Source: a virus
Lineage: Duplodnaviria > Caudoviricetes
Length of the DNA stretch: 53,965 nt
Strand: one strand, 5' to 3'
Virus record (IMG/VR): IMGVR_UViG_3300025669_001165
Span: 1-53,965 of that record
Both the position numbers and the translations under genes were made by a program. Positions 26,643 to 40,986 of the stretch are shown piece by piece. Each line of letters opens with the position of its first letter. Position 1 is the first letter of the stretch. The notes below the pieces were generated by a model. The model did not search any database, was not told where the DNA came from, and worked only from the letters and a program-made list of their open reading frames with translations.

Positions 26643-26955
26643 TCACCTCCTCTCGTGTGCTTTAGTATTGTGGCACAAGTAACACAATACTTGTAGGTTC
26701 TCTTTTCTATTGTTTCTGGGGTTGCCGTCCTTGTGGTGAATAGCTAATCTCTTCTCCTTGGTACCACACATTTCACAATGCGTCTTCTTAACTACTCTTT
26801 CAGACCACCCTCGGGATACTCCACCCTTCCAATTCCAATGCTTCTCGCCAATATGGCCAATCTTCCGTAGAGAAGCGAGAGCCCAATCTACTATTGGGTC
26901 CTCCAGGAAGTGCTAACTCCCTCATCTTTTGTTTAAACACTTCGGTCACTGCCAT
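26643..26955 (-). pseudogene. Frameshifted HNH endonuclease
   Basis: One frame encodes GEKHWNWKGG...CEMCG...IHHKDGNPRNNRKENLQVLCYLCH but lacks an ATG. The RBS and ATG at 26955 open a different frame. Confidence 0.65.
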
Positions 26956-27322
26956 CATCATCCTCCCAGGGGAAAATAATCCATTCGTTAATAGTTCTGA
27001 CACAAAAGTCTGGTTCCACTTCTGTACCATCCTTCCTATATAGAGTAGCAATTCTTCTCTTACCATCCTTGAACGCCTTCAAAGTCTTACCAGTGTCCGA
27101 TACATCATCCACAACTATAAGATACTCCGAAGAGCAATACAAATTCCCAGCTACTGGAGCACCCAAGTGATAAGATAATCCTGCAGCAATATACAACCCT
27201 CCACGAGGAATAGGAAAGAGAGAATGATTTGTGATATCTTTTACATCATTCAGTTTATCCGCCAGTTCCTTTACATCCTTCAAATACTGCTCCCACGTAA
27301 TTATGTGTTTAGACTGTTTCAT
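26933..27322 (-). CDS. Type I purine phosphoribosyltransferase (Gpt-like)
   Basis: IITWEQY, IPRGG, VVDDVSDTGKT PRPP-binding motif and WIIFPWE. Confidence 0.85.
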   Translation of the reverse strand: MKQSKHIITWEQYLKDVKELADKLNDVKDITNHSLFPIPRGGLYIAAGLSYHLGAPVAGNLYCSSEYLIVVDDVSDTGKTLKAFKDGKRRIATLYRKDGTEVEPDFCVRTINEWIIFPWEDDDGSDRSV

Positions 27323-27752
27323 AACTCTCCTCGTGGCACTTAAAGGTATTCTCACAAAAACGACACTTATCCCTATGTATACTATCATGACATATAGTAC
27401 ACACAGCAGCAAAATTACCTTTGTTATTATTCTCCCTATTCCAATCTTTATGATGAACATATCTAGTTTTTCTCTTTTTACACACCTCACAAGTAGGGTG
27501 TGCTTCTCTATACTCCGTAATCTTTCTAGCCATGCCATCCTTATAGAAGGGGTGTTCCTCCCCTCTCCTAACATTCTTCTTTATCTTTTCTTTAACGTCT
27601 TCTCTTCTAGCTGGATTTTTATCTCCAGAAATATCTTCTCTCACTAGTCCTTTCAGAGGATTTACGTAACCTTTCTTATACTTCTTTTTCCAAGAAACGC
27701 TTAATTTCTTTCGAGTCTCCTCTGAATGTTTGTGTCCCTTAAAATAGCCCAT
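27309..27752 (-). CDS. NUMOD3-HNH homing endonuclease
   Basis: GHKHSEETRKKLS (NUMOD3), CEVC and VHHKDWNRENN...CTICHDSIH. Confidence 0.85.
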   Translation of the reverse strand: MGYFKGHKHSEETRKKLSVSWKKKYKKGYVNPLKGLVREDISGDKNPARREDVKEKIKKNVRRGEEHPFYKDGMARKITEYREAHPTCEVCKKRKTRYVHHKDWNRENNNKGNFAAVCTICHDSIHRDKCRFCENTFKCHEESYETV

Positions 27753-28420
27753 TACACCTCCTCGTAGATAAGGGGGTCAGTCATATCTGCTTTACCAAAC
27801 GCTTCTAGTCTCTCTCTACAGCTACCACATACCCCACATGCCTTCTCTTCTCCCTTGTAACACGTCCAAGTAAGCTGATAGGGAACCTTTAATGCTTTAC
27901 CCATGCACGCTATGTCTCCTTTGTCAAGTCCAACAAACGGAGCAAGTATCTGTAATTCCTTGATATCATTACCGCTAAGTACTATGTTGATATCCTCTAA
28001 AAAGTCCTGACGGCAGTCCCAATAGATTGCATGGTCACCACTATGGGCTCCATAGTAGATATGCTCTACGTACTTCAGAGTCTCTGCTAAGGCTGCTGCA
28101 AGACTAAGCATTATCATATTGCGATTAGGTACTACTGTTGCCTTCATGCTCTCTTCATCGTAGTTACCCTCTGGAACTGCTATACCCTCATCTGTCAAAG
28201 CACTTCCTCCAAAGGAAGGAAACTGTACGATATGGTGTGTTGCAGAGTCCCCACTGTAATACTTTACTAGTTCCTTCGCACATTCAATCTCTTTACTATG
28301 TCTCTGCCCATAGTCAAATGTTACACAGTGTACGAACTTCCCTTCTTCTACTAGCTTACCTAGTAGTGTGGCACTATCCATTCCGCCACTCAATACCAAT
28401 AATACTTCTTCAGGTCCCAT
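27752..28420 (-). CDS. queC: 7-cyano-7-deazaguanine synthase
   Basis: SGGMDS, FDYGQRH, VPNRN and TWTCY...CGVCGSC. Confidence 0.97.
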   Translation of the reverse strand: MGPEEVLLVLSGGMDSATLLGKLVEEGKFVHCVTFDYGQRHSKEIECAKELVKYYSGDSATHHIVQFPSFGGSALTDEGIAVPEGNYDEESMKATVVPNRNMIMLSLAAALAETLKYVEHIYYGAHSGDHAIYWDCRQDFLEDINIVLSGNDIKELQILAPFVGLDKGDIACMGKALKVPYQLTWTCYKGEEKACGVCGSCRERLEAFGKADMTDPLIYEEV

Positions 28421-28421
28421 A

Positions 28422-29024
28422 TCACACTCCTTTTTTTGTACCCCAAACATCTACATGAAGTCTAGGGGAATATCTTAGTTTTTTTCTCCAACAATAATTC
28501 CAAACCTTCTTCTTTATCATCAGGTCCTTCTTTGGATTACCAGTAGTCAAAGGCATCAGCATAGTTGCATATGGTAACATATCTGCTCCTACTGTTTCGA
28601 AGTCTGTAACTACCTTTATATCCCAAGTGGCTATTCCTTCCTTCTGCATTGCGAATACTCTTCTGGCGGTTATCAACTCCTTGGGACTTATGGAGATATG
28701 GTCAAACATCTGAAAGTCTTCTTCCATTAACAAATCTCCATTCGTCTCTATATGTACATCTGTAGTGAACACTTCCATCATATACTCTTCTACTGCTGCT
28801 CTCTGTACCAAAGGTTCTCCTCCAGTTAAGCATACGTATCCAGCATCCTGAACGAGATTGTTGAACTTACTCTTACTCAAGTACGTACCACTCGTATGGT
28901 AAGAAGTATCGCACCAAGGACAATCTCTATTACATCCTGACAGACGTATGAACTGCATAGGGACTCCTGCGAACCTTCCCTCTCCTTGTATACCTACGAA
29001 TTCCTCGTTAACTCTTAGCTTCAT
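28422..29024 (-). CDS. queE: 7-carboxy-7-deazaguanine synthase (radical SAM)
   Basis: IQGEG, FIRLSGCNRDCPWCDT, TGGEP, IETNG, SPK and PRLH. Confidence 0.95.
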   Translation of the reverse strand: MKLRVNEEFVGIQGEGRFAGVPMQFIRLSGCNRDCPWCDTSYHTSGTYLSKSKFNNLVQDAGYVCLTGGEPLVQRAAVEEYMMEVFTTDVHIETNGDLLMEEDFQMFDHISISPKELITARRVFAMQKEGIATWDIKVVTDFETVGADMLPYATMLMPLTTGNPKKDLMIKKKVWNYCWRKKLRYSPRLHVDVWGTKKGV

Positions 29025-29419
29025 CTTGCCATCCTTGCATAACTTGTTGGGGTCTCCCAAAGAGTAAGCGAGTGGAGAGAACACTTCAGTTCCAAAACCT
29101 TCGGTTCAAGAATCTCCCAAAAGGCTCTTACCATATTCTCCGCGGTACAGATACAGCCTCCAAATATCTCTACATCATTCAAAAACTGATGGTCTACCTT
29201 ATCTATGATTTGCGCATTAACAAGTTCCTTCAGGTCTACGAAGTTCATCAGCATCCCGTCATCTGTACTAACTCCACCACCTATTTCAACCCTTAACTTG
29301 TAGGTGTGCCCGTGTATGTCATTGCACTTCCCAAACATCTGTCTATTCCACGCCTCTCCGTGTTCGTGATTGAGCAACTTATGTGCGGAATCAAATACGA
29401 AATCCTTACCAATTATCAT
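29021..29419 (-). CDS. queD: 6-carboxy-5,6,7,8-tetrahydropterin synthase
   Basis: FDSAH, GKCNDIHGHTY, DHQFLN, TAEN and WETPTSYA. Confidence 0.97.
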   Translation of the reverse strand: MIIGKDFVFDSAHKLLNHEHGEAWNRQMFGKCNDIHGHTYKLRVEIGGGVSTDDGMLMNFVDLKELVNAQIIDKVDHQFLNDVEIFGGCICTAENMVRAFWEILEPKVLELKCSLHSLTLWETPTSYARMAR

Positions 29420-31734
29420 TAGAACCCTCCTTTGTTGTTATCCCCTACCCTATCATATGCTACTCTTTCCTGCTCATTACACTCTTCCACTCTTGCTAAA
29501 GAAGGGTAGAATTTGTAGTAGGTTCTTCCTTTAAACTCTGACAGTTTATTCTTCCTCGCCCACAAACCAATCACGGGCAAGACTATTCCTTCATCTGTTA
29601 CATGGTACAATTTAGTCTTCGTACTATCCTCTAACATCGTATGTTCGTTATGCAAACAGAAGACTGCATCTGCATCATAAGTTAAATCAATAGTCTCTTT
29701 GATGTCTTCTTCTGTAGGCCAAGTTAACCTATCCTGCATCTTTCTTATCTCTGCTGTTGCAACTAAAGGTACATCGTATGTATTGATTATCCTCTTCAGT
29801 CCTTCACTAATGTGAGTGAACTTATCTCTCGTTTCCTTTCCTCCAGTCTCTGTAGTCATCTTATGTAGGTTGTCGATGAAGACCACCAACTGCTTATCCT
29901 TTGCGATAGTCTTATACATTCGTATAACCTTCTCCATGTACTCAAGTGACCTACCCTCTCCTACATCTTTCACTACCCACTGGTTGGATAACCATCGTAG
30001 ATGATGTACTGCTTCATCTCTTTTCTGTTCTAACATCGCACTTTGCTCGGTTGTGATAGCATCATTGTTTCGTATCTTATGTATGGGATTCGATAAAACG
30101 TTTATCTCTATCCCTGAATGGCTGGCTAATATCCTCGGTAGCACCTTGTTCGTATTGTCATCAATACTAAAGTACAGCACGAATACCTTATCTGGGTTGT
30201 GCATTATAACGTTGTGTGCCATCTCTAAACAGAACGTAGACTTACCTATGTTTGACCTTCCTGCTACCAAATACAAAGCGTTCTGTAGTCCTTCCATCTT
30301 TGCTGTGAGTGTAGGCCAACCCATATGTAACCCTAGTAGTTCTCCTCTACTCCAAGACCATTCCTCGAATGTGTTTATGGCTGACTCCATCTTCTCCATC
30401 TCTCCTAACACATCCTCTAACAATACCCCCTTAGTCGCCTCCCCATCAAACCCATGTAACTCTTGTGTGATAGCACTCTCACTAAGATTCATCGTCTCCG
30501 ACATCCTCCTAATGAGCCTCTCTTGCGCAATCGCACTTTCCTCATTAGCGATTACATTCAGACATTCATCCTTGTAGATATCTTCATCTGGACTGTCTGC
30601 GTACTTCTCCAATTGGTATTCAAAGATGGTCTGTTCTGGTAACGCTAAGAACTTATCTTTCCCGTGCTTCTGTATGTACTCATCTGGGTCTTTAGTATCG
30701 GATAACTTCTTCACAAACACTTCTAGGTCTGTCTTCTCAGTAACCAGGGTGTGTAGTATCTTATCCAAACTTGTAAACGCTCCTGCTTCGTTATCCAAAC
30801 AGAAGACTATTTGATGTATCCCGCATTTCAATAATGCTGCGTATTGTGCTGGAGTGAAGTTCTTACCACACAGGGCTACTACATTCTTTATTCCTGCAAG
30901 GTGTAACGTAAATGCATCAGCATATCCTTCTACCAGGTACAACTTATGTCCTTCTGCTCTTGCCTTGTCTAGGTTGAACAGTATGCTTCCTTTCGTGTAC
31001 ACTGAAGAGTTTCCAAAGTTCAAATAGCGTATAGCATTCTTCTGTCCTCTGTAGTCTCTAGATGCAAAGCCTACCACTCTACCGAAGTGATTCTTTATAG
31101 GAAACACTAATCTATCATCAAATAGGAACTTTTGAAAGCCTTTCTTCTTTTGGTCCTCTCCTGCTAAAAGCCCTGCTCGTATCATTACCTCGTTTGTAAA
31201 CTTCTGTCCCCGTAGTTTGTTTATCAATTTGTCGTAACTGCACCAACCAAAGCCAAACTCATCAACGAGATGTTCCCAACCTCTCTTCTTAATGTAAGTT
31301 TTGATATCCTTAGTGACAGGGTTCTCTGCCTTCATAGTGTTGCATAGCAACTGTGCTGCGTATTCCAACACCTTATGTATCTCTGTCTTATCTTCCTCTG
31401 GTCCCTCGTTACCTACTTCTGTTTCGTACTCTATGTTATACTTGTCAGCCAGATACGCTACATTCTCCGTAATGAACTCAATACCATGCGTGGGTCTTCC
31501 CTCTATAAGCGAAACCGCTTTGAATATGTCTCCTGCTGAACTGCAAGAGAAACAATGAAAGTGTTCCTCATCTGGATAGAAACTACAACTGGGTGTTTCA
31601 TCTTCATTACTGTGTGCTTGGGAGTTGGGACACTGAAAGTGTGTACCACTTAAGTCCCTACCTTGTTCTTCTAAGTAAGTGAAGAGCATAGGTCGTATCT
31701 GAGACATGACTGTCTCAAGATTCTTTATCCTCAT
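29419..31734 (-). CDS. DnaG-like primase / DnaB-like helicase fusion
   Basis: CHC2-type Zn finger, Toprim LVEGYAD and DPDE motifs, helicase GRSNIGKS and FIDNLH. Confidence 0.92.
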   Translation of the reverse strand: MRIKNLETVMSQIRPMLFTYLEEQGRDLSGTHFQCPNSQAHSNEDETPSCSFYPDEEHFHCFSCSSAGDIFKAVSLIEGRPTHGIEFITENVAYLADKYNIEYETEVGNEGPEEDKTEIHKVLEYAAQLLCNTMKAENPVTKDIKTYIKKRGWEHLVDEFGFGWCSYDKLINKLRGQKFTNEVMIRAGLLAGEDQKKKGFQKFLFDDRLVFPIKNHFGRVVGFASRDYRGQKNAIRYLNFGNSSVYTKGSILFNLDKARAEGHKLYLVEGYADAFTLHLAGIKNVVALCGKNFTPAQYAALLKCGIHQIVFCLDNEAGAFTSLDKILHTLVTEKTDLEVFVKKLSDTKDPDEYIQKHGKDKFLALPEQTIFEYQLEKYADSPDEDIYKDECLNVIANEESAIAQERLIRRMSETMNLSESAITQELHGFDGEATKGVLLEDVLGEMEKMESAINTFEEWSWSRGELLGLHMGWPTLTAKMEGLQNALYLVAGRSNIGKSTFCLEMAHNVIMHNPDKVFVLYFSIDDNTNKVLPRILASHSGIEINVLSNPIHKIRNNDAITTEQSAMLEQKRDEAVHHLRWLSNQWVVKDVGEGRSLEYMEKVIRMYKTIAKDKQLVVFIDNLHKMTTETGGKETRDKFTHISEGLKRIINTYDVPLVATAEIRKMQDRLTWPTEEDIKETIDLTYDADAVFCLHNEHTMLEDSTKTKLYHVTDEGIVLPVIGLWARKNKLSEFKGRTYYKFYPSLARVEECNEQERVAYDRVGDNNKGGF

Positions 31735-34270
31735 AATCCTCCATCTCTGACCACCTTTTACCATAAGATATATCAATCCGCATCGGAATGTTCATCCCTG
31801 CGATTGGCCGTTCCATTTCCTCGTATAATATTTTCACGAATCTTTTTAACTCTTCATCTGGAGTCTCCCACAAACCAGCATCATGTATATCCATTAAAGT
31901 AGAAGTCTTCAGTTTCTCTTCCTTTAACCGTACCCCTACTCTTATCATAACGATTGCTAAACAATCATGTGCGAACCCTTGAATAGGAGAGTTCACTGCC
32001 TGAGCTAAAGCATGAGATTCAATTTCCGTAGAGGAGTGAAACATAAGTTGTCCTGCCTCCCCAGTAAAAGAAGTTGCTACTCCCATTGCTACTGGTATGC
32101 GTCTCTTACGACCAAAGTAGTTTACTACGTACCCATTATCAACAGCAAACTTCTTCGTCTCATCCAACCACCTCTCTCCTACTGGAAACTTATCCAGAAA
32201 ATGCCTAATTGTTTTCGTCGCTGCAAGTACAGGTATATCATATTCTTCTGCTACGCTCTTAGGTCCCCTTCCATACATGACTCCAAATACTGTCATCTTA
32301 GCTACAAACCTATCCCACTTCGTAACCTCCTCCTCTGGTTTCTTAAATAGGAAAGCTCCCATCTCTGCGTGAATGTCTTTACCAGATTTGATATACGCAA
32401 TCATATCGGGACACTGAGACATCTGTGCCCAACATCTAAACTCTGCTTGTTTAAAGTCGGCCTCTATTAACCAACTGCCTTCTGCTGCAACGAAGTAACT
32501 CCGAATGTCTTGCGCCTCTTCTCCTCTCTTTGGTTGGTTTTGAAGATTAGGGTTCGCAGAAGATAGTCTACCTGTTTCTGTACCATGTTGTTTATAAGTA
32601 GTATGTAACCTACCGTCTGCATGTATCAGCTCTGGTACGTTCTTCAAATAGGTACCATAAAACTTAGACAGAGTACCAGTACGTTGTAAATACTTCGCTC
32701 CTTCGTGTTTGGTAGAAAGGCTTTCCAAAGCATCCTTATTAGTACTCCTATCTGAATAGGGGTCTCCATATAGCAACGCTCTTTTGTGTTGTACGCTATT
32801 GGGATTGAATACTACTGGGGGTACTTCCTTGGGTGTCTTCCTTACCTCATCGCTCTTCTTCTGGGCGAGAGTAGTCATCAGTTTTTCTACTACCTTAACG
32901 CTAGGGAGTTCCTGCAACCCCACAGAAAGCTTTTCCAGTTCAGTTCCGTACTTCTCTATTAACTTCTGGAGTATGGATTGGTCTATCCTCACGCCTCTCA
33001 TCTCCATCTTCTGAAGCAGTTTGTTGTAGGGCATTACTATCTTACTGAACAGTACCCACAGACCTTCATCTATCAACCTCTGTTTGAATATGTTGTACAG
33101 TCTTATGGTAGCATCAACATCCATTCCTGCGTATTGCCAAAGTACCTCCTCGGGAATAACCGCATAGGACGTCTTTGAGTTCAATAAATACTTTTTCAGT
33201 CCCTTATCATACTGACCCATATCAGTATATTCCATTGCTAAACTCTTCAAGTCGTGTGCACCAGTTTCCTGTAACAGATGATGAGCGAGCATCGTATCGA
33301 ACTTAAAATCTACCATCTGTACATTCGCTTGCATAAGAAACTTGTTATCAAACTTACCATTCTGAGCAATCATTGTCTTACCGTACGGCTCATTGAACAT
33401 ATCTCTCAGCATCCTACAGATGAACCCAAAGTCACTCTTATCCCAGAAGGGTTCTAACTTACCATCTGTCATGTAATTCTTATTGCTATGGTAGAATGGA
33501 ATAATTGCTCCTGTTCTCTCTTTCCAAGAGAACGCAAGACACAGTACCTTATCTACACCACTCCACCCAAAACCCGACGTTTCAATATCATAAGATACCT
33601 CTTTCTCTCCTTCTATATGTTTGAACAACGTCTGAACCTTATCCAAATCAGTACAGGGTACATACTTGCAAGGTTCTGGTTTGCCTATTCCTTTACCCTC
33701 CAATGCCTGATATACTGCTTCCCACCCCTTACGAAACAAATCGTTAGCTCTGTCTCCCTGGTTCCTCAAAACATATGACGGATGAACGATTGGTATACAA
33801 ACAGCATCATATTGTTCATTCCAGAAGGGCTTTCCCGTAAGACGAATGATACCTTTGGAAAACCCCAACACCGTGTTCATAGCGACGGCCCCCAGTAGAA
33901 CTATAATCTTTGGCTTCACTTCTTCTATTTCCAAGTACAACTTGGTTTTGCATACAGCCACCTCCTTTTTAGTCGGCGCTCTATTCCCTGGGGGTCGACA
34001 CTTTACAACATTCGTAATATACATATTCTCTCTAACTAAACCCTGCATCTTAAGAAAATGGTTCATTAACTGACCTTGTTTTCCTACGAGGGGTTCCTGC
34101 TTGACTACTTCTTCGCCTCCGAGTGCTTCTCCTATTACCATTATCGAGGCATCCTTAGGTCCTACTCCCATCAATCCAGCAGTTCTACATACTAGACCTG
34201 AGTAACCGTAAGTGCTACCTTCCCATAACTTGCACTCTTTACAATTAACGACATCACAATCAAACTGCAT
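31715..34270 (-). CDS. polA: Family A DNA polymerase with an N-terminal family-4 uracil-DNA glycosylase-like domain
   Basis: UDG: GEALG, TNVVKCRPPGNR, HPS. 3'-5' exonuclease: YDIET, NGKFD, YAGMD. Polymerase: TGRLSS, ADFKQAE, RFVAKMTVFGVMYG, IHDA. Confidence 0.95.
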   Translation of the reverse strand: MQFDCDVVNCKECKLWEGSTYGYSGLVCRTAGLMGVGPKDASIMVIGEALGGEEVVKQEPLVGKQGQLMNHFLKMQGLVRENMYITNVVKCRPPGNRAPTKKEVAVCKTKLYLEIEEVKPKIIVLLGAVAMNTVLGFSKGIIRLTGKPFWNEQYDAVCIPIVHPSYVLRNQGDRANDLFRKGWEAVYQALEGKGIGKPEPCKYVPCTDLDKVQTLFKHIEGEKEVSYDIETSGFGWSGVDKVLCLAFSWKERTGAIIPFYHSNKNYMTDGKLEPFWDKSDFGFICRMLRDMFNEPYGKTMIAQNGKFDNKFLMQANVQMVDFKFDTMLAHHLLQETGAHDLKSLAMEYTDMGQYDKGLKKYLLNSKTSYAVIPEEVLWQYAGMDVDATIRLYNIFKQRLIDEGLWVLFSKIVMPYNKLLQKMEMRGVRIDQSILQKLIEKYGTELEKLSVGLQELPSVKVVEKLMTTLAQKKSDEVRKTPKEVPPVVFNPNSVQHKRALLYGDPYSDRSTNKDALESLSTKHEGAKYLQRTGTLSKFYGTYLKNVPELIHADGRLHTTYKQHGTETGRLSSANPNLQNQPKRGEEAQDIRSYFVAAEGSWLIEADFKQAEFRCWAQMSQCPDMIAYIKSGKDIHAEMGAFLFKKPEEEVTKWDRFVAKMTVFGVMYGRGPKSVAEEYDIPVLAATKTIRHFLDKFPVGERWLDETKKFAVDNGYVVNYFGRKRRIPVAMGVATSFTGEAGQLMFHSSTEIESHALAQAVNSPIQGFAHDCLAIVMIRVGVRLKEEKLKTSTLMDIHDAGLWETPDEELKRFVKILYEEMERPIAGMNIPMRIDISYGKRWSEMEDYEDKES

Positions 34271-35036
34271 TCTTGTCCCTTTTGTATAATTCGTTGTAGG
34301 TTTTACCGTTTAGGTATCTCCAATGATAGGTTTCAAAGCCTAACTTGATTCCTGTATCCTTGTACTTCTCTTTCATATACTCTCTACACTCTCTCCAATC
34401 ATCTTTACTGATGACTCTAAACTTGTTCGTCTTCCATAACTCTTCGTAGAACTGGCTACCTCTCATTGGTACATATGTGAGTGCTACTATCTCCTGCACG
34501 TAAGTCTTCCTCTCGTACAACCAATCGACCGTATGAAAGAAATCCTGGTTACCTGTAGTGAATGGTAACCCCGACATTATGTATACGAGATTGTTAACTC
34601 CCTTCTTAAACGACTGCTCTAAAACTTCTTCCATCTGGGCAACTACGATACCTTTCCCTAACCAACTCAGTATCTCATCGTCTGCTATCTCAAAGCCCCA
34701 ACTGATAGTGAGGTCGAATAGTTCTACTACTCTGGATACCTCATCCCAGTCTACCTTGTCTATCCTGTTCTCTACTCTCAGAGCAGTTACTCCATTGTCA
34801 CTTAGATAGTCATAAACGAAGTTTCTTATCTCTGGTGTTAAGTCATCATCGCTGAACCAACTACCACCATTGAATATCTTAAAGTATCTTCCTTCCTTCT
34901 TACACTTCACCAATTCCTCATCTAACATATCCTTCAAGTCTTCCCTAGTGGGCATAGCAAACTTCTGCATTTGATTGTAACCGCAGAACTTACACTTCCC
35001 CCAACTACAGGGTCCTATGTTTAAGTAAACAGACAC
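34260..35036 (-). CDS. RaSEA-like radical SAM protein (archaeosine formation; TIGR01210-like)
   Basis: CSWGKCKFCGY, KIFNGGSW, VENR, GFEIADDEI..LGKG and YIMSGLPF resemble RaSEA segments (KIFTSGSF, VESR, GLETANDEI..INKG). Coupled to the DUF5591 gene. Confidence 0.7.
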   Translation of the reverse strand: MSVYLNIGPCSWGKCKFCGYNQMQKFAMPTREDLKDMLDEELVKCKKEGRYFKIFNGGSWFSDDDLTPEIRNFVYDYLSDNGVTALRVENRIDKVDWDEVSRVVELFDLTISWGFEIADDEILSWLGKGIVVAQMEEVLEQSFKKGVNNLVYIMSGLPFTTGNQDFFHTVDWLYERKTYVQEIVALTYVPMRGSQFYEELWKTNKFRVISKDDWRECREYMKEKYKDTGIKLGFETYHWRYLNGKTYNELYKRDKNAV

Positions 35037-35818
35037 ACTTCCTCCTTTGCTTTCCTAAGCTCTTCTAGGAACATCTCCTTTGTACGTTTAAGGCCCAGCA
35101 TCCTAAACTTTAACAGACCTGTGCTACCTTTAAACCTATCTATATATTCGTCATTTATTTTTCGTATATTTTCGTCGGTAAAAACAGTGAACTTCTTCTG
35201 TTCGATAGGGCAATCGATAAGTGCATCGTAAGTTTCCCCCGGTCTAACCATGTTCACTATCGCTTTGTATTTGAACTGAGTAAACCATCTGTATATCCTA
35301 GCGCGGGTAACTGCTGTGTACTTCGCCTTTATCTCTTCTGTCTCTTCTGTTTCGTTCCATTCGTAATACCTATATGGGTAGTGCCCATCGTAATCTATTG
35401 GTATCACTCCTGGATTGGATAGTATGAAGAAGTCTACTCCCTCTTTCTGACATATGGTATAGTACTGTTTGATATACTGCTGTGTTCGGTAGGGCTTCTT
35501 ATTGGCACATAACATTACCACAGCAATGTTTGACTTGGGTTTGAAGTTCTCCTCTAAGTGTTTCCTCATAGTTGTATATGAGAAATGCTCGAGTTGCTTA
35601 CTTGTTGCTCCTACGAGCCCATCTAAGTCCCACTGGTCTCTTGGAATTACTTCATCTTCTTCTGATAGGAATGGAGCGAGTTTATCTTTGCCCCACTTGG
35701 TTATGTCTTCTCTATTCTGTTCACTATGGAGTTTCTTATATTCGGGTCCCCAACTTTGTCTCCAAGCAATAATGTTCTTCGCAACCTTGTAATACAAATC
35801 TTCGTTCGTAATCACCAC
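35021..35818 (-). CDS. ArcS-like archaeosine synthase subunit (DUF5591)
   Basis: VVMLCANKKPY...ILSNPGVIPIDYDGHYPYRYY resembles the ArcS core LLPCSxxKPY...SPxGVVPxE...YPxxxY. Confidence 0.75.
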   Translation of the reverse strand: MVITNEDLYYKVAKNIIAWRQSWGPEYKKLHSEQNREDITKWGKDKLAPFLSEEDEVIPRDQWDLDGLVGATSKQLEHFSYTTMRKHLEENFKPKSNIAVVMLCANKKPYRTQQYIKQYYTICQKEGVDFFILSNPGVIPIDYDGHYPYRYYEWNETEETEEIKAKYTAVTRARIYRWFTQFKYKAIVNMVRPGETYDALIDCPIEQKKFTVFTDENIRKINDEYIDRFKGSTGLLKFRMLGLKRTKEMFLEELRKAKEEVCLFT

Positions 35819-35825
35819 AGCCTCC

Positions 35826-36593
35826 TTATTTTACCATTTGCATAGTAACTAAAATATTTTGTAGGGCTTGTTGAAACACCTCCTTATCGTAGCCACCATC
35901 GAAGTCCAGTAGACCATCTACCTTATCCGCACATCCTTCAACTGTAAAAGCTATGTCGTTCATAGCGTACTTCACCTGCTTGGTAGTATCGTTACTACGT
36001 ATCCAAGAATACTTCTTCTGGAAGAACAATTCAAGTACGTTACCCAGTCCTAGCAGATGATGTTCCTTCTGCGGGTCCATTTTGTCTAGTAGATTTGTTA
36101 GATACACTCGGTTCGGCATCACCCCAGGCAGATTAGTCTCACTCTTAAAGCACTTTTCTACTACCCTGAACGCTAAACCTATAACATCTACTTCTGACCA
36201 TCTACATAACTCTTCATAACACTCCATATACTCTTGATAAGTACTACCTTGGGGAACCGCCTGAATCTTTAAACCTCTTGCACCATCAGAACGAGACAGT
36301 ATATCTAGTGCTGCCATAGAATCTTGTAGCGTTTTCTTCATATCGAACTTATGGTCGGGCAATACTATTTCATCGCACTCTAACCTTATTGCTTCTTCTA
36401 TTACCTGCCCGAATGGTAATGAAGAACCTAACTCATGTGCACTGTTATCCATTATCTTATACTTCTTCGTTCCTTTGAAGAAAGCGCTGTACTCAGCATC
36501 TAACTGAGACACGTGTGGAAGCAGAAGATAGAAGTCCTGCATATCATGTAGTGCTTCACAATACGACTCTGGACATATGAAAGATAGTTTCAT
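35826..36593 (-). CDS. dpdA: DpdA-like (TGT-fold) DNA base-exchange transglycosylase
   Basis: IMDNSAHE, IVLPD, AVPQG, HLLGL and SNDTT TGT-like motifs, in context with folE and the que genes. Confidence 0.72.
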   Translation of the reverse strand: MKLSFICPESYCEALHDMQDFYLLLPHVSQLDAEYSAFFKGTKKYKIMDNSAHELGSSLPFGQVIEEAIRLECDEIVLPDHKFDMKKTLQDSMAALDILSRSDGARGLKIQAVPQGSTYQEYMECYEELCRWSEVDVIGLAFRVVEKCFKSETNLPGVMPNRVYLTNLLDKMDPQKEHHLLGLGNVLELFFQKKYSWIRSNDTTKQVKYAMNDIAFTVEGCADKVDGLLDFDGGYDKEVFQQALQNILVTMQMVK

Positions 36594-36907
36594 TCGAACA
36601 GCTCCTTTTCTTTAAGTGCTTCCTCTTTAAGGTCTTCGTACTTCTGTTCCAACTTCGCTACCTCTTGGTATTGAAAAAAAGCATAGCACGCTACATCTCT
36701 TAACTCTGACCTCATCTCGAAGAAAAGGTCACTATCCTTATGCTGTTCCTCTCCATACACTTTCGCGCCTAACTTGAATCCCTCTACCATATCACTTATG
36801 AACTTTGATAATGTGGTAGGGTCTACGTCCCTTGGTAGAGATAAAAACTCTGCCAGTGTTCCTTTGTACTCTTCCTTTGGTGCTTCTTTCTTTTCTTCAT
36901 CAGCCAT
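36590..36907 (-). CDS. Small all-alpha nucleotide-modification-associated protein (MazG-like superfamily)
   Basis: GAKVYG...EMRSELRDVACYA pattern; lies between folE and dpdA. Confidence 0.45.
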   Translation of the reverse strand: MADEEKKEAPKEEYKGTLAEFLSLPRDVDPTTLSKFISDMVEGFKLGAKVYGEEQHKDSDLFFEMRSELRDVACYAFFQYQEVAKLEQKYEDLKEEALKEKELFE

Positions 36908-36909
36908 TG

Positions 36910-37743
36910 TTACCTCCTTATTAAGGTTAAGAACTCTTCTCTTGCTTGCTTGGTAGGGTCTAAAAACACTCCCCTCATTGCGGAGGTTGTCATAACACTA
37001 CTTTGTTTTCGTACTCCTCTAATAGCAGTACACATATGCTGCGCTTCGATTACAACTCCTAGTCCTTTCGGCTTGAGATGCTTTTCTATCGCGTCTGCTA
37101 TCTGTCTCGTCATCCTTTCTTGTATCTGAGGTCTCCTAGCATAAATGTCTACCACCCTAGCAAGTTTGGATACTCCTACCACCCTTCCACCATCTTCTGG
37201 AATGTAAGCCACATGCGCTTTACCCAAGAAGGGAAGAAAATGATGCGAACACATGGATTGGAATTCTATATCCTTTAGAATCACCATCTCGTTATAACCG
37301 TCAGAGGGAAACGAAGTACCTAGTACATCGTCTGCATTTTCATCCAACCCCGCGAACAACTCTATCCAAGCTCGTGCAATCCTATGTGGGGTACCTTGAA
37401 GATTTTCATCTTCCAAATCAAGCCCCCGGAACTTCTTAGAGAGCCCTCTTAACATTAGAGCAGCGCCGGTAGCTATTTCATTGACCCCCCAATTCTCTCT
37501 CTTCCAGGTTCCTAACTCGTTGTGAAGCTTCTGATGGCACTTACGACACAATATTTCCACATCCTCTTCCTTATTGAACGCAGTATTAGTAGAAACCCCA
37601 TAGGGAATATGTACCCCATTGAGGTGATGTCTTTCTATATTATCTGTGCTCCCACAGCGACTACAGCACTCATTTGGTAGTATCCCTGAGGCCTCTTTAG
37701 CCCAATCTAGCGTATCCCCCTTGGTTTTCTTGCTCTTTTCCAT
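36910..37743 (-). CDS. folE: GTP cyclohydrolase I with an N-terminal HNH domain
   Basis: [33 protein letters not shown] and [10 protein letters not shown]-terminal CSRC...RHH...LCRKCH. AAGGAG RBS before 37743. Confidence 0.93.
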
Positions 37744-37759
37744 GTATCCCCTCCTTGTT

Positions 37760-38056
37760 TTAGTCGAATAAATCATTATCCTGTATAACCACCCCAGAGC
37801 TGGAAGCAAGGGGCTGCGTCCTCACTTCCGTGGACTCGACAGGGTGTCTCGTCCGCTCTAATGACTCTGGGATAGTATTTTTCTTTCCGTACACCACCAG
37901 GATATCATTTTTCTGTAGGTTTAATTTTGTCATTGATACGAGAGCGCTAGCGTTGTCATAAGTAGCAGCAGGGAACACTTCCATTATCTTCTCTGCTATT
38001 GCTTTATGCACCAATCCCGCTCTGAATCCTTCTTTCGCTACTTCTGTCTTGTTCAT
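37760..38056 (-). CDS. Hypothetical protein
   Basis: 98-aa ORF whose 3' half overlaps a structured RNA candidate. Confidence 0.5.
37793..37871 (-). other. Three-way-junction RNA candidate upstream of folE
   Basis: CCCAGAGT/GCTCTGGG closing stem enclosing the hairpins GGAC-GA-GACA-ccc-TGTC-GA-GTCC and GGAAGTGAGG/CCTTGCTTCC. Confidence 0.5.
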
Positions 38057-38847: not shown

Positions 38848-38882
38848 AGCACTCCTAAGATTGTAATTTGTAACACTCTTTT

Positions 38883-38911
38883 ATTATATGATACTTTTCA
38901 AAATAAATCAA
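38883..38911 (-). promoter_or_regulatory. Sigma70-type promoter for the replication/modification operon
   Basis: TTGATT-17nt-TATAAT. Confidence 0.7.
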
Positions 38912-38914
38912 TGT

Positions 38915-39313
38915 TTATTTTTGTCTGTTATAACCCGTGCTCTTGTTGGGTTTCCTCAGTTCGTACTTATTACTATATGGGTTATGCTGAAGAGCACTAT
39001 CGGGACTCGCATAAACGTACTTCCCATTCATTTGATTATATTGTATTGTAGCATCATTGTCTACCAGCTCGTACTTGTTAGAGTACGGGTTGTGTTTTAT
39101 TGTTGCTGCAAATGCACTACTACATATTAACGAAATAATAATCATTGCCGCTACTCTCTTCTTACTTCTCGCTCTGCATCGTTCTTTTGCAACCGCCTTA
39201 CACTTGTCCCCACAATACCTCGAGTTGGGTGAAAGTGGTTTGTACGTCTTGCAACATATCCCACATGACCTTGGTTTGTCGTTAAACTGATAGTTCCAAC
39301 TCTTGCCTATCAT
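38915..39313 (-). CDS. Zn-finger domain plus a signal-peptide-bearing repeat domain (possible internal start at 39145)
   Basis: CGIC...YCGDKC, then MIIISLICSSAFA and HNPYSNKYE twice. Confidence 0.5.
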   Translation of the reverse strand: MIGKSWNYQFNDKPRSCGICCKTYKPLSPNSRYCGDKCKAVAKERCRARSKKRVAAMIIISLICSSAFAATIKHNPYSNKYELVDNDATIQYNQMNGKYVYASPDSALQHNPYSNKYELRKPNKSTGYNRQK

Positions 39314-40569: not shown

Positions 40570-40986
40570 TTAGGAGACCTTCTCAACGGTTACTCTAAGT
40601 ATGCCCTTTCTTAGATTTCCTATCTTTTCGAATGCTCCTTTCGACAAATCAACTATGCGACCTTTGTTGTAAAGTTTCTTATTCGGTCCGAAATCGTTGT
40701 GTCTTACTACGACTGACTTGCCATTGTCTATATTTGTTACCTTATACACACCTCCCCAATCTCTCCTTCTCATAGCACACGTCATATCATTCTCGTCGTA
40801 ACGTTCTCCTGATGCTGTCCATACTCCTGAGGTACCTTCCCTCTTACAGCTCTCGTAAGTGTAATAAGAAGCGGTCCCTGTCCTCGTTCCAGAGTTGATT
40901 GTTTTGATAGCTGCGCTGCCTGGAAAGGCTTCCGCGGTGCTTGCAAATATGAATGCCAATACTAAAACGAGACTTAACACCTTCAT
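40570..40986 (-). CDS. RlpA-like double-psi beta-barrel lytic transglycosylase with signal peptide
   Basis: GTASYY, TASGE, VTNIDNGKSVVVRHNDFGP and RIVDLSKGAF. Confidence 0.85.
   Translation of the reverse strand: MKVLSLVLVLAFIFASTAEAFPGSAAIKTINSGTRTGTASYYTYESCKREGTSGVWTASGERYDENDMTCAMRRRDWGGVYKVTNIDNGKSVVVRHNDFGPNKKLYNKGRIVDLSKGAFEKIGNLRKGILRVTVEKVS

What the first reader, a model, noticed from the sequence alone, without database searches (positions are those of the whole stretch)
34260..36593. Archaeal-type ArcS + RaSEA archaeosine pathway coupled to DpdA in a bacteriophage
Seen: dpdA-like, DUF5591/ArcS-like and RaSEA-like genes are consecutive, and the last overlaps polA. folE, queD, queE and queC are all present, while no QueF, QueF-L or Gat-QueC was seen. 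Established: in euryarchaeal tRNA, ArcS adds lysine to preQ0 and RaSEA cleaves it to give archaeosine; phage DpdA inserts preQ0 into DNA. Inference: this phage makes 2'-deoxyarchaeosine through a preQ0-lysine DNA intermediate using an oxygen-sensitive radical step. Phage ArcS homologues are known, but I do not recall a characterised phage ArcS+RaSEA pair acting on DNA. RlpA and sigma70 promoters point to a bacterial host.
Basis: partly seen in the sequence, partly recalled or inferred. Interest (0 to 1): 0.85.

Follow-up and report, generated by a model that had tools for sequence, protein, structure and literature searches.

The report
Phage ArcS-core plus RaSEA-like gene pair
An uncultured phage carries, next to its DNA polymerase, a full 7-deazaguanine pathway, a DNA transglycosylase and a conserved gene pair related to the two archaeal enzymes that finish archaeosine, which suggests a radical-SAM route to archaeosine-type DNA not yet described in phages.

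Summary
On the minus strand, three consecutive genes (36593-35826, 35818-35021, 35036-34260) run into polA. They encode a TGT-fold protein of the phage DpdA3 kind, a DUF5591 protein (the ArcS catalytic core, "ArcS2"), and a radical SAM protein whose best family is RaSEA (TIGR01210). folE, queD, queE and queC are in the window; no QueF or Gat-QueC is, but the record is a fragment.

- **RaSEA is not met as an equivalog.** The radical SAM protein scores 61 bits against a cut-off of 212. On a tree its small family is a separate deep clade, sister to canonical RaSEA plus archaeal RaSEA::DUF5591 fusion proteins.
- **The pairing is conserved.** The DUF5591 gene lies just upstream of the radical SAM gene in 6 of 6 related loci, and the two domains are fused in archaeal relatives.
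- **The ArcS motif is partly degenerate.** C and KPY are kept; P, S and H are lost.
- **The pair is rare in phages.** No relative of the radical SAM protein was found in 50,697 deposited phage records. Phage nt-1, the only tested ArcS2 phage, has no RaSEA.

Most likely the module makes 2'-deoxyarchaeosine, or a close amidine, in phage DNA. The chemistry, the lysine donor and the DNA-versus-free-base stage are inferred. I rate it a new variant of a known kind, of moderate to high interest.

The parts
36910..37809 (-). GTP cyclohydrolase I FolE (residues 129-297), with an in-frame N-terminal HNH-like stretch
   Evidence: PF01227 at 216.7 bits and TIGR00063 at 218.2 bits; HNH at 19.6 bits, below the 21.4 cut-off
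36590..36907 (-). 105-aa acidic ORF of unknown function between folE and the dpdA-like gene
   Evidence: No Pfam, NCBIfam or PHROG hit; no tblastn match in loci L003-L007 or L009
35826..36593 (-). DpdA3-like DNA 7-deazaguanine transglycosylase (TGT fold, 255 aa)
   Evidence: AF2 model pLDDT 93.4. The first 50 PDB Foldseek rows are all TGT or ArcTGT, TMq 0.57-0.69. Best viral model is a 259-aa phiST protein, TM 0.87/0.85. tblastn gives 28.6% identity over 97% of the query to the Flavobacterium phage immuto_2-6A 'DNA guanine transglycosylase', and 27.5% to phiST CGPG_00065, which is DpdA3 in PMC10516641
35021..35818 (-). DUF5591 protein: stand-alone ArcS catalytic (C1) core of the ArcS2 type; probable start at 35815
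   Evidence: PF17884 at 38.4 bits against a cut-off of 26. ArcS equivalog NF040592 only 22.9 of 440 bits. Family profile hits PDB 2q07 (AF0587) at E 1.8e-8. Motif LC-ANK-KPY-RT-Q-QY-I: C and KPY kept; P, S and H lost
34260..35036 (-). RaSEA-like radical SAM protein (258 aa) with Cx4Cx2C cluster motif CSWGKCKFC; GGAGG 4 nt before the GTG start
   Evidence: TIGR01210 at 61 bits, E 1.1e-16, below the 212.15 cut-off. Tree places it as a sister clade to canonical RaSEA plus fusions. Radical SAM barrel model pLDDT 81.6. Start context
31715..34270 (-). Family A DNA polymerase with N-terminal family-4 uracil-DNA glycosylase and 3'-5' exonuclease domains; its start overlaps the radical SAM stop by 11 nt
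   Evidence: PF00476 at 280.7, PF03167 at 102.2 and PF01612 at 70.4 bits; junction
29021..29419 (-). QueD (6-carboxytetrahydropterin synthase, PTPS family)
   Evidence: PF01242 at 116.9 bits
28422..29084 (-). QueE-like radical SAM protein (7-carboxy-7-deazaguanine synthase)
   Evidence: PF04055 at 36 bits. The five best NCBIfam hits are all QueE models, the top at 67 bits; all are below cut-off
27752..28450 (-). QueC (preQ0 synthase), 232 aa, no amidotransferase domain
   Evidence: PF06508 at 206.3 bits; TIGR00364 at 181.2 bits, above the 150.3 cut-off

Best explanation
The window is a fragment of a tailed phage, probably of an anaerobic bacterium, whose replication module carries a DNA guanine-modification pathway.

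Proposed pathway:
1. FolE, QueD, QueE and QueC make preQ0 from GTP.
2. A DpdA3-family transglycosylase exchanges guanine in phage DNA for a 7-deazaguanine base.
3. A translationally coupled pair turns the nitrile of preQ0 into the formamidine of archaeosine. The pair is a stand-alone ArcS catalytic core (DUF5591, 'ArcS2') and a RaSEA-like radical SAM enzyme.
4. By analogy with Thermococcus ArcS/RaSEA, the DUF5591 protein adds an amine (lysine in the archaeal case) to the nitrile. The radical SAM partner then cleaves the C-N bond of the adduct and leaves the amidine.
5. The predicted product in virion DNA is 2'-deoxyarchaeosine (dG+).

Shown here: gene content, order and coupling; TGT fold and DpdA3 homology; DUF5591 membership; radical SAM fold and cluster motif; placement of the radical SAM family in the RaSEA superclade; conservation of the pair and its fusion in archaeal relatives.

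Inferred: every chemical step, the amine donor, complex formation, whether the pair acts on DNA-bound dPreQ0 or on free base or nucleotide before insertion, and the host.
For: Gene identities.
- DUF5591 is above the Pfam cut-off.
- RaSEA is the best NCBIfam family for the radical SAM protein: 61 bits, against 34.4 bits for the next family, MnmL. JGI names 5 of its 9 non-self homologues 'radical SAM enzyme (TIGR01210 family)'.
- The family profile scores a bona fide RaSEA (P0063, 334.8 bits to TIGR01210) at 84.7 bits. It scores queuine lyase 6p78 at 47.8 bits.

Tree. The careful IQ-TREE run of 54 rows gives a 100/100 branch of length 1.34. That branch joins the phage family (13 rows, 99/94), the canonical RaSEA clade (13 rows, 100/100; 11 of 11 tested rows are above the TIGR01210 cut-off) and the fusion clade (98/96), apart from B12-type and other radical SAM proteins.

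Pairing.
- The DUF5591 gene is immediately upstream of the radical SAM gene in 5 of 5 metagenome loci and in the one genome-collection locus.
- The junctions are a 4-nt overlap (L003), an 11-nt overlap (L005), gaps of 17 and 19 nt (L006, L007), about a 10-nt overlap (L009) and a gap of about 220 nt (L004).
- L003 and L004 also carry a DpdA-like gene, polA and queC. L003 has folE2 and L009 has folE.
- Rosetta-stone fusions of radical SAM (N-terminal) and DUF5591 (C-terminal) occur in 8 of 149 scanned representative hits, plus P0026.

Transglycosylase. DpdA3 homology and fold rest.

Literature.
- ArcS is active only in complex with RaSEA, and it accepts the preQ0 nucleoside and nucleotide (PMC11298593, passages).
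- nt-1 ArcS2 with DpdA2 gives only 4-7 dG+ per 10^6 nt in E. coli (PMC10516641, passages). nt-1 has no TIGR01210 match in its whole genome.
Against: - The radical SAM protein falls far below the RaSEA equivalog cut-off (61 against 212.15 bits). Only residues 3-207 align to the model, and the conserved C-terminal 50 residues (C217, Y237, W239, R240, G244) are family-specific.
- On the tree the phage family lies outside the clade of canonical RaSEA plus fusions (98/99 branch of length 1.0). A changed reaction is therefore possible.
- In the ArcS C1 motif PC-x3-KPY-x2-S-x2-H (as given in PMC10516641), the phage family lacks H in 11 of 11 members, S in 10 of 11 and P in 11 of 11. The archaeal fusions keep C, KPY, S and H in 9 of 9.
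- The best solved structure by sequence is queuine lyase, not RaSEA, though no RaSEA structure is in the PDB copy. Fold search is not discriminating: Elp3 and MgmA rank first and queuine lyase ranks 33rd.
- Sulfolobus virus STSV-2, which encodes DpdA and ArcS, contains dCDG and no dG+ (PMC10516641). An ArcS homologue therefore does not guarantee dG+.
- The record is a fragment (32% by CheckV). Other tailoring genes may lie outside it, and a second cluster with two more radical SAM genes, a methyltransferase and two glycosyltransferases lies at 15201-20486.
- No chemical data exist.
Confidence: 0.58

Rival explanations
1. Same module, different product. The diverged DUF5591 protein adds an amine other than lysine, or the diverged radical SAM enzyme does not simply cleave the adduct. 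The DNA then carries a new N-substituted amidine or another 7-deazaguanine derivative rather than plain dG+. The nearby B12-radical SAM, methyltransferase and glycosyltransferase cluster might decorate it further.
For: - The radical SAM family is a separate deep clade outside canonical RaSEA plus fusions, with its own conserved C-terminus and only 61 of 212 bits to TIGR01210.
- The S and H of the ArcS motif are lost in the phage family but kept in 9 of 9 archaeal fusions.
- STSV-2, with DpdA and ArcS, carries dCDG and not dG+ (PMC10516641).
- Phages have repeatedly produced unforeseen 7-deazaguanine derivatives (the same paper's abstract).
- A second modification-type cluster lies at 15201-20486.
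Against: - nt-1 ArcS2 also lacks the motif H (it has W) and still yields dG+.
- The strict pairing and the fusions point to the same two-step logic as ArcS/RaSEA.
- Nothing links the 15-20 kb cluster to the deazaguanine genes. It is about 8 kb away, separated by recombination genes.
Confidence: 0.25
2. The radical SAM protein is a queuine-lyase-type salvage enzyme. It frees preQ1 or preQ0-type bases from host queuine or queuosine to feed DpdA, and it works independently of the DUF5591 protein.
For: - The best PDB sequence match is queuine lyase 6p78: E 9.9e-7 for the single protein and 1.1e-11 for the profile, with the same CxWGKCxFC motif.
- A representative hit in the same superclade (P0044) has a weak N-terminal Q_salvage match, 16.6 bits against a cut-off of 25.
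Against: - The profile scores canonical RaSEA higher (84.7 against 47.8 bits), and the queuine lyase match covers only residues 3-141.
- The phage has a complete de novo preQ0 pathway, so salvage is not needed.
- The invariable DUF5591 neighbour (6 of 6 loci) and the fusions would be left unexplained.
Confidence: 0.06
3. The pair modifies RNA, making archaeosine in tRNA of the host or the phage, rather than phage DNA.
For: ArcS and RaSEA are tRNA enzymes in archaea (PMC11298593). Members of the DUF5591 family carry MAG labels that include a methanogen (P0017).
Against: - The DUF5591 protein matches only the core region of the ArcS models (residues 86-194 to model positions 283-392 of 575) and has no other Pfam domain. 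It therefore carries neither a PUA nor a TGT-like N-domain.
- The genes sit between a DpdA3 homologue and polA in a replication module.
- There are no tRNA genes in the window and no canonical TGT or ArcTGT to put preQ0 into tRNA.
- Peptidoglycan-directed proteins point to a bacterial host, where tRNA carries no preQ0-15: DPBB at 40570-40986 and NlpC/P60 at 48575-49006.
Confidence: 0.04

Closest known systems
Archaeal ArcS-RaSEA archaeosine synthase complex (Thermococcus kodakarensis; Yokogawa et al. 2019 is recalled and not in the library; PMC11298593 passages read)
   Same: It is a two-protein system: a DUF5591/C1 catalytic domain plus a TIGR01210-type radical SAM enzyme with a Cx4Cx2C cluster motif. 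The two are functionally dependent on each other and act on the nitrile of preQ0.
   Different: - The phage DUF5591 protein lacks the TGT-like N-domain, C2 and PUA. It has lost P, S and H of the C1 motif.
- The phage radical SAM protein is 258 aa. It scores 61 against 212 bits and forms its own clade.
- The context is a DNA transglycosylase and polA in a bacterial-type phage, not tRNA modification.
Phage ArcS2 of Vibrio phage nt-1, with DpdA2 (PMC10516641, PMC6884629; passages read)
   Same: It is a stand-alone DUF5591 core in a phage, next to folE, queC and queD-like genes and a DpdA. It is shown to give dG+ in DNA when co-expressed with DpdA2.
   Different: - nt-1 has no TIGR01210-like gene anywhere in its 247.5 kb genome and makes only trace dG+.
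- Its ArcS2 shares 29.9% identity with the window protein over 37% of the query.
- Its partner is DpdA2, not DpdA3.
- Two IMG/VR contigs (L012, L013) also carry a lone DUF5591.
DpdA3 phages (Cellulophaga phiST, Flavobacterium vB_FspM_immuto_2-6A, Campylobacter CP220; PMC10516641)
   Same: They have a short (about 255-260 aa) TGT-fold transglycosylase beside 7-deazaguanine synthesis genes. The paper reports that DpdA3 gives complete replacement of G.
   Different: Those phages make dDG, fdPreQ1 or dADG with DpdL, QueF plus DpdN, or QueC*. None is reported with ArcS2 or a RaSEA-like gene. Identity to the window protein is only 27.5-28.6%.
RaSEA::DUF5591 fusion proteins of DPANN and Altiarchaeota MAGs (P0026, P0053, P0059, P0060, P0061, P0119, P0121, P0122, P0168)
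   Same: The same two domains occur in one polypeptide, which argues that they work together. They fall in the same RaSEA superclade.
   Different: - The domain order is radical SAM then DUF5591, opposite to the phage gene order.
- They keep the full C1 motif in 9 of 9.
- Where named, they are archaeal (Aenigmatarchaeota, Altiarchaeota; 3 of 9 clusters carry an organism name).
- They are presumably tRNA enzymes. None is characterised as far as my searches show.
Queuine lyase (PDB 6p78, Clostridium spiroforme)
   Same: It is a small radical SAM enzyme with the CxWGKCxFC motif that cleaves a C-N bond on a 7-deazaguanine side chain. It is the best solved relative by sequence.
   Different: The relation is weaker than to RaSEA (47.8 against 84.7 bits) and covers the N-terminal half only. 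Queuine lyase has no DUF5591 partner.

Membership tests
RaSEA (NCBIfam TIGR01210, archaeosine biosynthesis radical SAM protein) | Score at or above the curated equivalog cut-off (212.15 bits) | tested here: not met
   61 bits, E 1.1e-16, residues 3-207 to model positions 18-228 of 313. It is the best-scoring family. The ten canonical rows score 273-381 bits and P0063 scores 334.8.
RaSEA (NCBIfam TIGR01210, archaeosine biosynthesis radical SAM protein) | Radical SAM barrel with an N-terminal three-cysteine [4Fe-4S] motif | tested here: met
   C10-x4-C15-x2-C18 is present in all 9 sequences that cover the N-terminus, of 10 aligned. The bona fide RaSEA P0063 has the same spacing (CSHDRCTMC). The AF2 model matches radical SAM structures at probability 1.00. 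The motif is shared with B12-type radical SAM proteins, so it is not diagnostic.
RaSEA (NCBIfam TIGR01210, archaeosine biosynthesis radical SAM protein) | Phylogenetic placement with RaSEA rather than with other radical SAM families | tested here: inconclusive
   The family is inside a 100/100 superclade with canonical RaSEA and RaSEA::DUF5591 fusions, but as a separate sister clade (98/99 split).
RaSEA (NCBIfam TIGR01210, archaeosine biosynthesis radical SAM protein) | Works with, and binds, an ArcS catalytic subunit | not testable with these tools
   Genomic support only: an adjacent DUF5591 gene in the window and in 6 of 6 related loci, plus fusions in relatives. Physical binding was not established.
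ArcS / ArcS2 (Pfam PF17884 DUF5591, ArcS C1 domain) | DUF5591 domain above the Pfam gathering score | tested here: met
   38.4 bits against 26 and 39.5 bits in the six-frame search. The family profile hits AF0587 (2q07) at E 1.8e-8.
ArcS / ArcS2 (Pfam PF17884 DUF5591, ArcS C1 domain) | C1 motif PC-x3-KPY-x2-S-x2-H (as quoted in PMC10516641) | tested here: not met
   The window protein reads LC-ANK-KPY-RT-Q-QY-I. C and KPY are invariant in the family. H is absent in 11 of 11 members and S in 10 of 11. nt-1 ArcS2, which is active, is also degenerate (LC-TTT-RPY-EN-S-RK-W).
ArcS / ArcS2 (Pfam PF17884 DUF5591, ArcS C1 domain) | Full-length ArcS architecture (TGT-like N-domain, C1, C2, PUA), meaning the NCBIfam equivalogs NF040592 and NF053620 | tested here: not met
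   22.9 of 440 bits and 18.1 of 600 bits, with only the core region aligned. This is the stand-alone core architecture that PMC10516641 calls ArcS2.
DpdA3 (phage DNA 7-deazaguanine transglycosylase subfamily, PMC10516641) | Homology to the founding members (phiST CGPG_00065, immuto_2-6A) | tested here: met
   tblastn gives E 4e-14 with 28.6% identity over 97% of the query to immuto_2-6A, annotated 'DNA guanine transglycosylase'. It gives E 3e-7 with 27.5% identity to phiST, within CGPG_00065. The best BFVD model is a 259-aa phiST protein, TM 0.87/0.85, rmsd 2.8.
DpdA3 (phage DNA 7-deazaguanine transglycosylase subfamily, PMC10516641) | TGT-type TIM-barrel fold with conserved acidic active-site residues | tested here: met
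   The first 50 Foldseek PDB rows are all TGT or ArcTGT at probability 1.00. D49, D80, Q115, G139-L140 and D202 are invariant in 8 of 8 family members. Their equivalence to TGT catalytic residues is recalled, not aligned residue by residue here. The Pfam TGT model itself gives no hit.
DpdA3 (phage DNA 7-deazaguanine transglycosylase subfamily, PMC10516641) | Inserts a 7-deazaguanine base into DNA | not testable with these tools
   Context only: it lies between folE and the ArcS2/RaSEA-like pair, upstream of polA.

The most novel reading that the evidence does not exclude
A lineage of phages of anaerobic bacteria has recruited a stand-alone ArcS-core/RaSEA-like enzyme pair and coupled it to a high-efficiency DpdA3 transglycosylase. 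This would make it the first radical-SAM-dependent tailoring step in a phage DNA base hypermodification. It would yield DNA in which guanine is largely replaced by deoxyarchaeosine or a new amidine derivative. It would also explain why ArcS2 alone, as in nt-1, makes only traces of dG+. The pair may act on DNA-bound dPreQ0 without any PUA or TGT-like targeting domain.
Probability: 0.4. Interest if true: 0.78.

Novelty: new variant of a known kind. Interest (0 to 1): 0.62.

Why it matters
Phage 7-deazaguanine DNA modifications protect against restriction and CRISPR nucleases, and how ArcS homologues work in phages is stated as an open question. [quoted passage not shown] PMC10516641 reports that nt-1 ArcS2 gives only trace dG+ and that STSV-2 gives dCDG instead.

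- **A testable answer.** A conserved ArcS-core/RaSEA-like pair next to a DpdA3 suggests that efficient amidine formation needs the radical SAM partner, as it does in Thermococcus.
- **Wider reach of the chemistry.** The finding extends the RaSEA-type chemistry from euryarchaeal tRNA to viruses with bacterial-type lysis genes.
- **An uncharacterised class.** It brings to light RaSEA::DUF5591 fusion proteins in DPANN and Altiarchaeota.
- **A compact test set.** DpdA3, ArcS2 and the radical SAM gene form a three-gene cassette for installing archaeosine-type bases in DNA.
- **An ecological limit.** If correct, this defence-evasion route would depend on anoxic conditions.

Tried and rejected
Searches that found nothing.
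- Megablast of 34000-37900 against 50,697 phage records gave no match.
- tblastn of the radical SAM protein against the same records gave no match at E <= 0.01.
- A pattern scan of IMG/VR with the radical SAM alignment found 25 pattern matches and no relative. The window's own record may be excluded from that scan.
- PHROGs gave only two families of unknown function for the DpdA-like protein and nothing for the other two.
- Sequence search of the PDB with the DpdA-like protein or its profile gave nothing meaningful. The fold search was needed.

Searches that did not discriminate.
- The fold search of the radical SAM model confirms the fold only: Elp3 and MgmA rank first, queuine lyase ranks 33rd, and no RaSEA structure is available.
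- P0048 and P0085 were checked as possible queuine-lyase orthologues and are not close ones. Queuine lyase is therefore missing from the trees.
- ARAGORN found no tRNA genes.

Complex prediction. The job on the DUF5591 family and radical SAM family alignments returned 'no answer' (score 0.00, controls not run). It counts neither for nor against binding.

Readings considered and set aside: a tRNA target, a queuine-lyase salvage role, and chance adjacency. The last is excluded by 6 of 6 conserved junctions and by the fusions.

Not done.
- I made no residue-level structural alignment of the DpdA-like active site to TGT.
- I built no tree of the DUF5591 domains.
Supplementary Data S1 of PMC10516641, the table of all phage pathway proteins, could list neighbours I could not see.
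- Yokogawa et al. 2019, the RaSEA discovery paper, is not in the searchable library and is cited from recall and through PMC11298593.

Full report
WHAT IS THERE

The window is an IMG/VR virus record of 53,965 bases. It is linear and CheckV rates it 32% complete. Nearly all long ORFs lie on the minus strand.

It is clearly a tailed phage. The window holds:
- a Mu-type portal, a GpA-type large terminase, a tape-measure-like protein and a tail protein;
- baseplate-type proteins and an NlpC/P60 protein;
- an RlpA-type DPBB protein;
- RecA, a RuvC-like protein and an SbcC-like protein.

It has no tRNA genes. Megablast finds no near relative among 50,697 deposited phage genomes.

The gene order on the minus strand is:
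1. folE (36910-37809)
2. a 105-aa unknown ORF (36590-36907)
3. gene A (35826-36593, 255 aa)
4. gene B (35021-35818, 265 aa)
5. gene C (34260-35036, 258 aa)
6. polA with an N-terminal family-4 UDG (31715-34270)
7. primase-helicase (29419-31776)
8. queD (29021-29419)
9. a queE-like gene (28422-29084)
10. queC (27752-28450)

These assignments rest.

The junctions suggest translational coupling.
- Gene B starts 7-10 nt after the stop of gene A, behind a GGAGG.
- Gene C starts at a GTG 4 nt after an AAGGAGG and overlaps the end of gene B by 16 nt.
- The polA ATG overlaps the end of gene C by 11 nt.

GENE A: A DpdA3-TYPE TRANSGLYCOSYLASE

Gene A has no Pfam or NCBIfam hit and only two PHROGs of unknown function. 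The Pfam TGT model finds nothing in the window.

Eight homologues were found. Their alignment shows invariant D49, E54, D80, Q115, G139-L140, R162, H179-x-L181-G182 and D202.

The AlphaFold model built on that alignment is confident (pLDDT 93.4, pTM 0.90).
- Against the PDB, all of the first 50 rows are bacterial TGT or archaeal ArcTGT at probability 1.00, with TMq 0.57-0.69.
- Against viral models, the best match is a 259-aa protein of Cellulophaga phage phiST (TM 0.87/0.85, rmsd 2.8, E 1.4e-19).

tblastn gives two informative matches.
- phiST: 27.5% identity. That match lies in CGPG_00065.

PMC10516641 names CGPG_00065 as the founding DpdA3. It reports that DpdA3 phages replace all their guanines (passages read). 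Gene A is therefore a DpdA3-family member by homology and fold. Its substrate is unknown, as it is for DpdA3 in general.

GENE B: AN ArcS CATALYTIC CORE

Gene B hits Pfam DUF5591 above cut-off (38.4 bits against 26). It reaches only 22.9 of 440 bits on the full-length ArcS equivalog, and only the core aligns.

Its family profile of 11 sequences hits the structure of AF0587 (2q07) at E 1.8e-8. This is the stand-alone C1 architecture that PMC10516641 calls ArcS2.

That paper gives the C1 motif as PC-x3-KPY-x2-S-x2-H. The window protein reads LC-ANK-KPY-RT-Q-QY-I. Across the family, C and KPY are invariant, but H is missing in 11 of 11 members and S in 10 of 11. The active nt-1 ArcS2 is also degenerate, with RPY in place of KPY and W in place of H.

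Among deposited phages, only nt-1, its relative CZ01 and Methanobacterium virus PhiF1 give any match. That is 4 records, at most 30% identity and at most 52% coverage.

GENE C: A RaSEA-LIKE RADICAL SAM ENZYME

Family scores.
- The Pfam Radical_SAM score is marginal (29.1 bits against 29.5).
- The best NCBIfam family is TIGR01210, 'archaeosine biosynthesis radical SAM protein RaSEA'. It scores 61 bits at E 1.1e-16 and covers residues 3-207. The next family, MnmL/YtqA, scores 34.4 bits.
- The RaSEA cut-off is 212.15 bits, so gene C is not a RaSEA equivalog.

Size of the family. Only nine other homologues exist in the 5.8-billion-protein index. JGI labels five of them 'TIGR01210 family'. In the exhaustive profile search, 9,654 proteins pass E 1e-3 but only 10 pass 1e-30. 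Seven of those ten are family members and three are giant multi-domain radical SAM proteins.

Conserved features. The cluster motif is C10-x4-C15-x2-C18 (CSWGKCKFC), conserved in all nine N-terminally complete sequences. The C-terminal 50 residues carry family-specific invariant positions (C217, Y237, W239, R240, G244).

Nearest relatives outside the family. Nine of the ten nearest proteins tested have TIGR01210 as their best family. Only one of them (P0063, 334.8 bits) is above cut-off. Three also hit ArcS models.

Trees. I built trees of 54 radical SAM domains. The rows were 13 from the phage family, 9 fusions, 12 RaSEA-type, 14 other short or odd hits, and 6 B12-type proteins as outgroup. 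The rows were picked by hand from the 150 best hits.
- The careful tree has a 100/100 branch of length 1.34.
- On one side of it are the phage family (99/94), the canonical RaSEA clade (100/100), a clade holding all nine fusions (98/96), and P0048 and P0057.
- On the other side are the B12-type and remaining short radical SAM proteins.
- Within the superclade, a 98/99 branch separates the phage family from all the rest.
- The quick tree agrees.
- Eleven of eleven tested rows of the RaSEA clade exceed the TIGR01210 cut-off. P0132 and P0162 were not tested.

Solved structures. By sequence, the best solved relative is queuine lyase 6p78. It scores 31.8 bits with the single protein and 47.8 bits with the profile, over residues 3-141 only. 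That is lower than the 84.7 bits the same profile gives canonical RaSEA P0063. No RaSEA structure exists in the PDB copy. The fold search of the model (pLDDT 81.6) confirms the radical SAM barrel but cannot tell subfamilies apart.

THE PAIR IS A UNIT

The metagenome scan returned five loci and the genome-collection scan returned one. The latter is a 5.1-kb contig of a MAG titled 'uncultured Eubacteriales bacterium'. In 6 of 6 loci, a DUF5591 gene at 41-54% identity lies directly upstream of the radical SAM gene on the same strand.

The junctions are:
- L003: 4-nt overlap
- L005: 11-nt overlap
- L006 and L007: gaps of 17 and 19 nt
- L009: overlap of about 10 nt
- L004: gap of about 220 nt

L003 and L004 also carry a DpdA-like gene, polA and queC. 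The gene order in L003 is folE2, queC, two unknown genes, dpdA-like, polA, an AAA ATPase gene, one unknown gene, DUF5591, radical SAM, a pyrimidine-dimer glycosylase gene and a 5'-3' exonuclease gene. L009 has folE.

Fusion proteins give independent support.
- The homologue search for gene B found a 427-aa protein (P0026). It has a RaSEA-like N-terminal half and a DUF5591 C-terminal half.
- A domain scan found eight more such fusions among 149 representative hits.
- All nine keep the full C, KPY, S and H motif.
- Where the source names an organism, they come from Aenigmatarchaeota and Altiarchaeota MAGs. One cluster is named 'archaeosine synthase'.

Other viral DUF5591 genes stand alone.
- nt-1 has no TIGR01210 match in its whole genome. 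The control genomes of three archaea matched as expected.
- Two IMG/VR contigs (L012, L013) carry a 31%-identical DUF5591 gene. tblastn with the window's radical SAM protein, P0063, P0026, P0053 and P0048 found no RaSEA-like gene within 6 kb of it.

HOW IT PROBABLY WORKS

Established background comes from passages of PMC11298593.
- In T. kodakarensis, ArcS transfers lysine to the nitrile of preQ0-15 in tRNA.
- ArcS is active only in complex with RaSEA.
- It accepts the preQ0 nucleoside and the 5'-phosphate nucleotide as minimal substrates.
- RaSEA then converts preQ0-Lys to G+ in an oxygen-sensitive step.

For phages (PMC10516641 and PMC6884629):
- nt-1 DpdA2 alone puts dPreQ0 into plasmid DNA, at 926-1607 per 10^6 nt.
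- Adding ArcS2 gives 4-7 dG+ per 10^6 nt.

My reading of the window is as follows.
1. FolE, QueD, QueE and QueC make preQ0.
2. The DpdA3-like enzyme inserts a 7-deazaguanine base into DNA.
3. The coupled DUF5591 and radical SAM pair converts nitrile to amidine by adduct formation and radical C-N cleavage.
4. The result is dG+ in virion DNA.

Gene content, coupling, folds, family placement and conservation of the pair are shown. Every chemical step is inferred, as are the donor, the complex and the stage at which the pair acts. Free base or nucleotide and DNA are both possible stages, because the protein has no PUA or TGT-like targeting domain.

Four radical SAM genes in 54 kb (queE, gene C, and two more at 18323-20486) fit an anoxic host. 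So do the Eubacteriales MAG label of L009 and the nearest polA relatives, which are in Bacillus and Clostridium phages at about 30% identity. The host is not established, and MAG labels of family members disagree (Methanogenium, Novosphingobium).

WHAT COUNTS AGAINST IT

- The radical SAM family fails the RaSEA equivalog threshold. It branches outside canonical RaSEA plus fusions and has a different C-terminus.
- The ArcS motif has lost three of its named positions.
- STSV-2, with DpdA and ArcS, carries dCDG rather than dG+.
- The record is a fragment.
- A weak Q_salvage signal in one superclade member hints that this superclade also holds salvage lyases (P0044, 16.6 bits against a cut-off of 25).

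These points keep a 'different product' rival alive at about 0.25. They make 'member of RaSEA' a weaker claim than 'works like RaSEA'.

NOVELTY

Phage 7-deazaguanine DNA modification, DpdA3 and ArcS2 are all published. A RaSEA-type partner in a virus is not, as far as I could search.
- 'RaSEA' does not occur in the two phage papers (0 occurrences).
- 'RaSEA' together with 'archaeosine' returns four papers, none on viruses.
- 'ArcS2' and 'DUF5591' lead only to PMC10516641.
- A 2023-onward search for 7-deazaguanine, radical SAM, phage and archaeosine adds nothing relevant.

Subscription journals and supplements were not searchable. I rate the finding a new variant of a known kind, with interest 0.62.

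Noticed in passing
window 15201-20486 (- strand): A second putative modification cluster. It holds a GT4 glycosyltransferase (385 aa), a GT2 glycosyltransferase (219 aa), a SAM methyltransferase (235 aa), an unknown 237-aa ORF, a B12-binding radical SAM protein (426 aa; best family TIGR04072 at 205 bits against a cut-off of 360) and a radical SAM/SPASM protein (315 aa). Its target (DNA, a peptide or a surface sugar) is unknown.
   Followed up: partly
window 26933-27752 (- strand): Directly after queC lies a NUMOD3/HNH-type homing-endonuclease-like ORF (27309-27752). It is followed by a short Gpt-like purine phosphoribosyltransferase whose listed 213-aa ORF is over-extended. The six-frame view suggests a protein of about 135 aa, and xanthine PRT scores 46.9 bits against a cut-off of 138. 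It could recycle the guanine released by DpdA, but that is speculation.
   Followed up: partly
window 36910-37809 (- strand): The FolE ORF has an in-frame N-terminal extension of about 125 aa with a sub-threshold HNH match (19.6 bits against 21.4). It may be a fused or decayed homing endonuclease.
   Followed up: no
window 31715-34270 (- strand): The family A DNA polymerase carries an N-terminal family-4 uracil-DNA glycosylase domain (PF03167 at 102.2 bits; TIGR00758 at 141.4 bits, above cut-off). The UDG-PolA fusion is shared with Bacillus SP-10-like and Clostridium phages at about 28-30% identity.
   Followed up: no
proteins P0026, P0053, P0059, P0060, P0061, P0119, P0121, P0122, P0168: These are single-polypeptide RaSEA-like::DUF5591 fusions of 402-488 aa with the complete ArcS C1 motif. 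Where named, they come from Aenigmatarchaeota and Altiarchaeota MAGs. They appear to be an uncharacterised one-protein archaeosine synthase.
   Followed up: partly
protein P0044 (544 aa, representative hit): It has a RaSEA-like radical SAM domain at the C-terminus. Its N-terminal region has a weak Queuosine-salvage (PF10343) match, 16.6 bits against a cut-off of 25. It may be a fused queuosine hydrolase and queuine-lyase-type enzyme.
   Followed up: no
L012 6001-6792 and L013 6001-6801 (IMG/VR contigs of 91.7 and 197.5 kb): A distant DUF5591 gene (31% identity) without a RaSEA-like neighbour within 6 kb. In L012, queE-like and queD-like genes lie just upstream. These are lone-ArcS2 viruses like nt-1.
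   Followed up: partly
window 38848-39100 (- strand): Two near-consensus sigma-70-like sites lie in the intergenic stretch upstream of the replication and modification module: TAGACA-17-TATAAT at 39063-39035 and TTGATT-17-TATAAT at 38911-38883. Promoter-like sites are not enriched overall.
   Followed up: no
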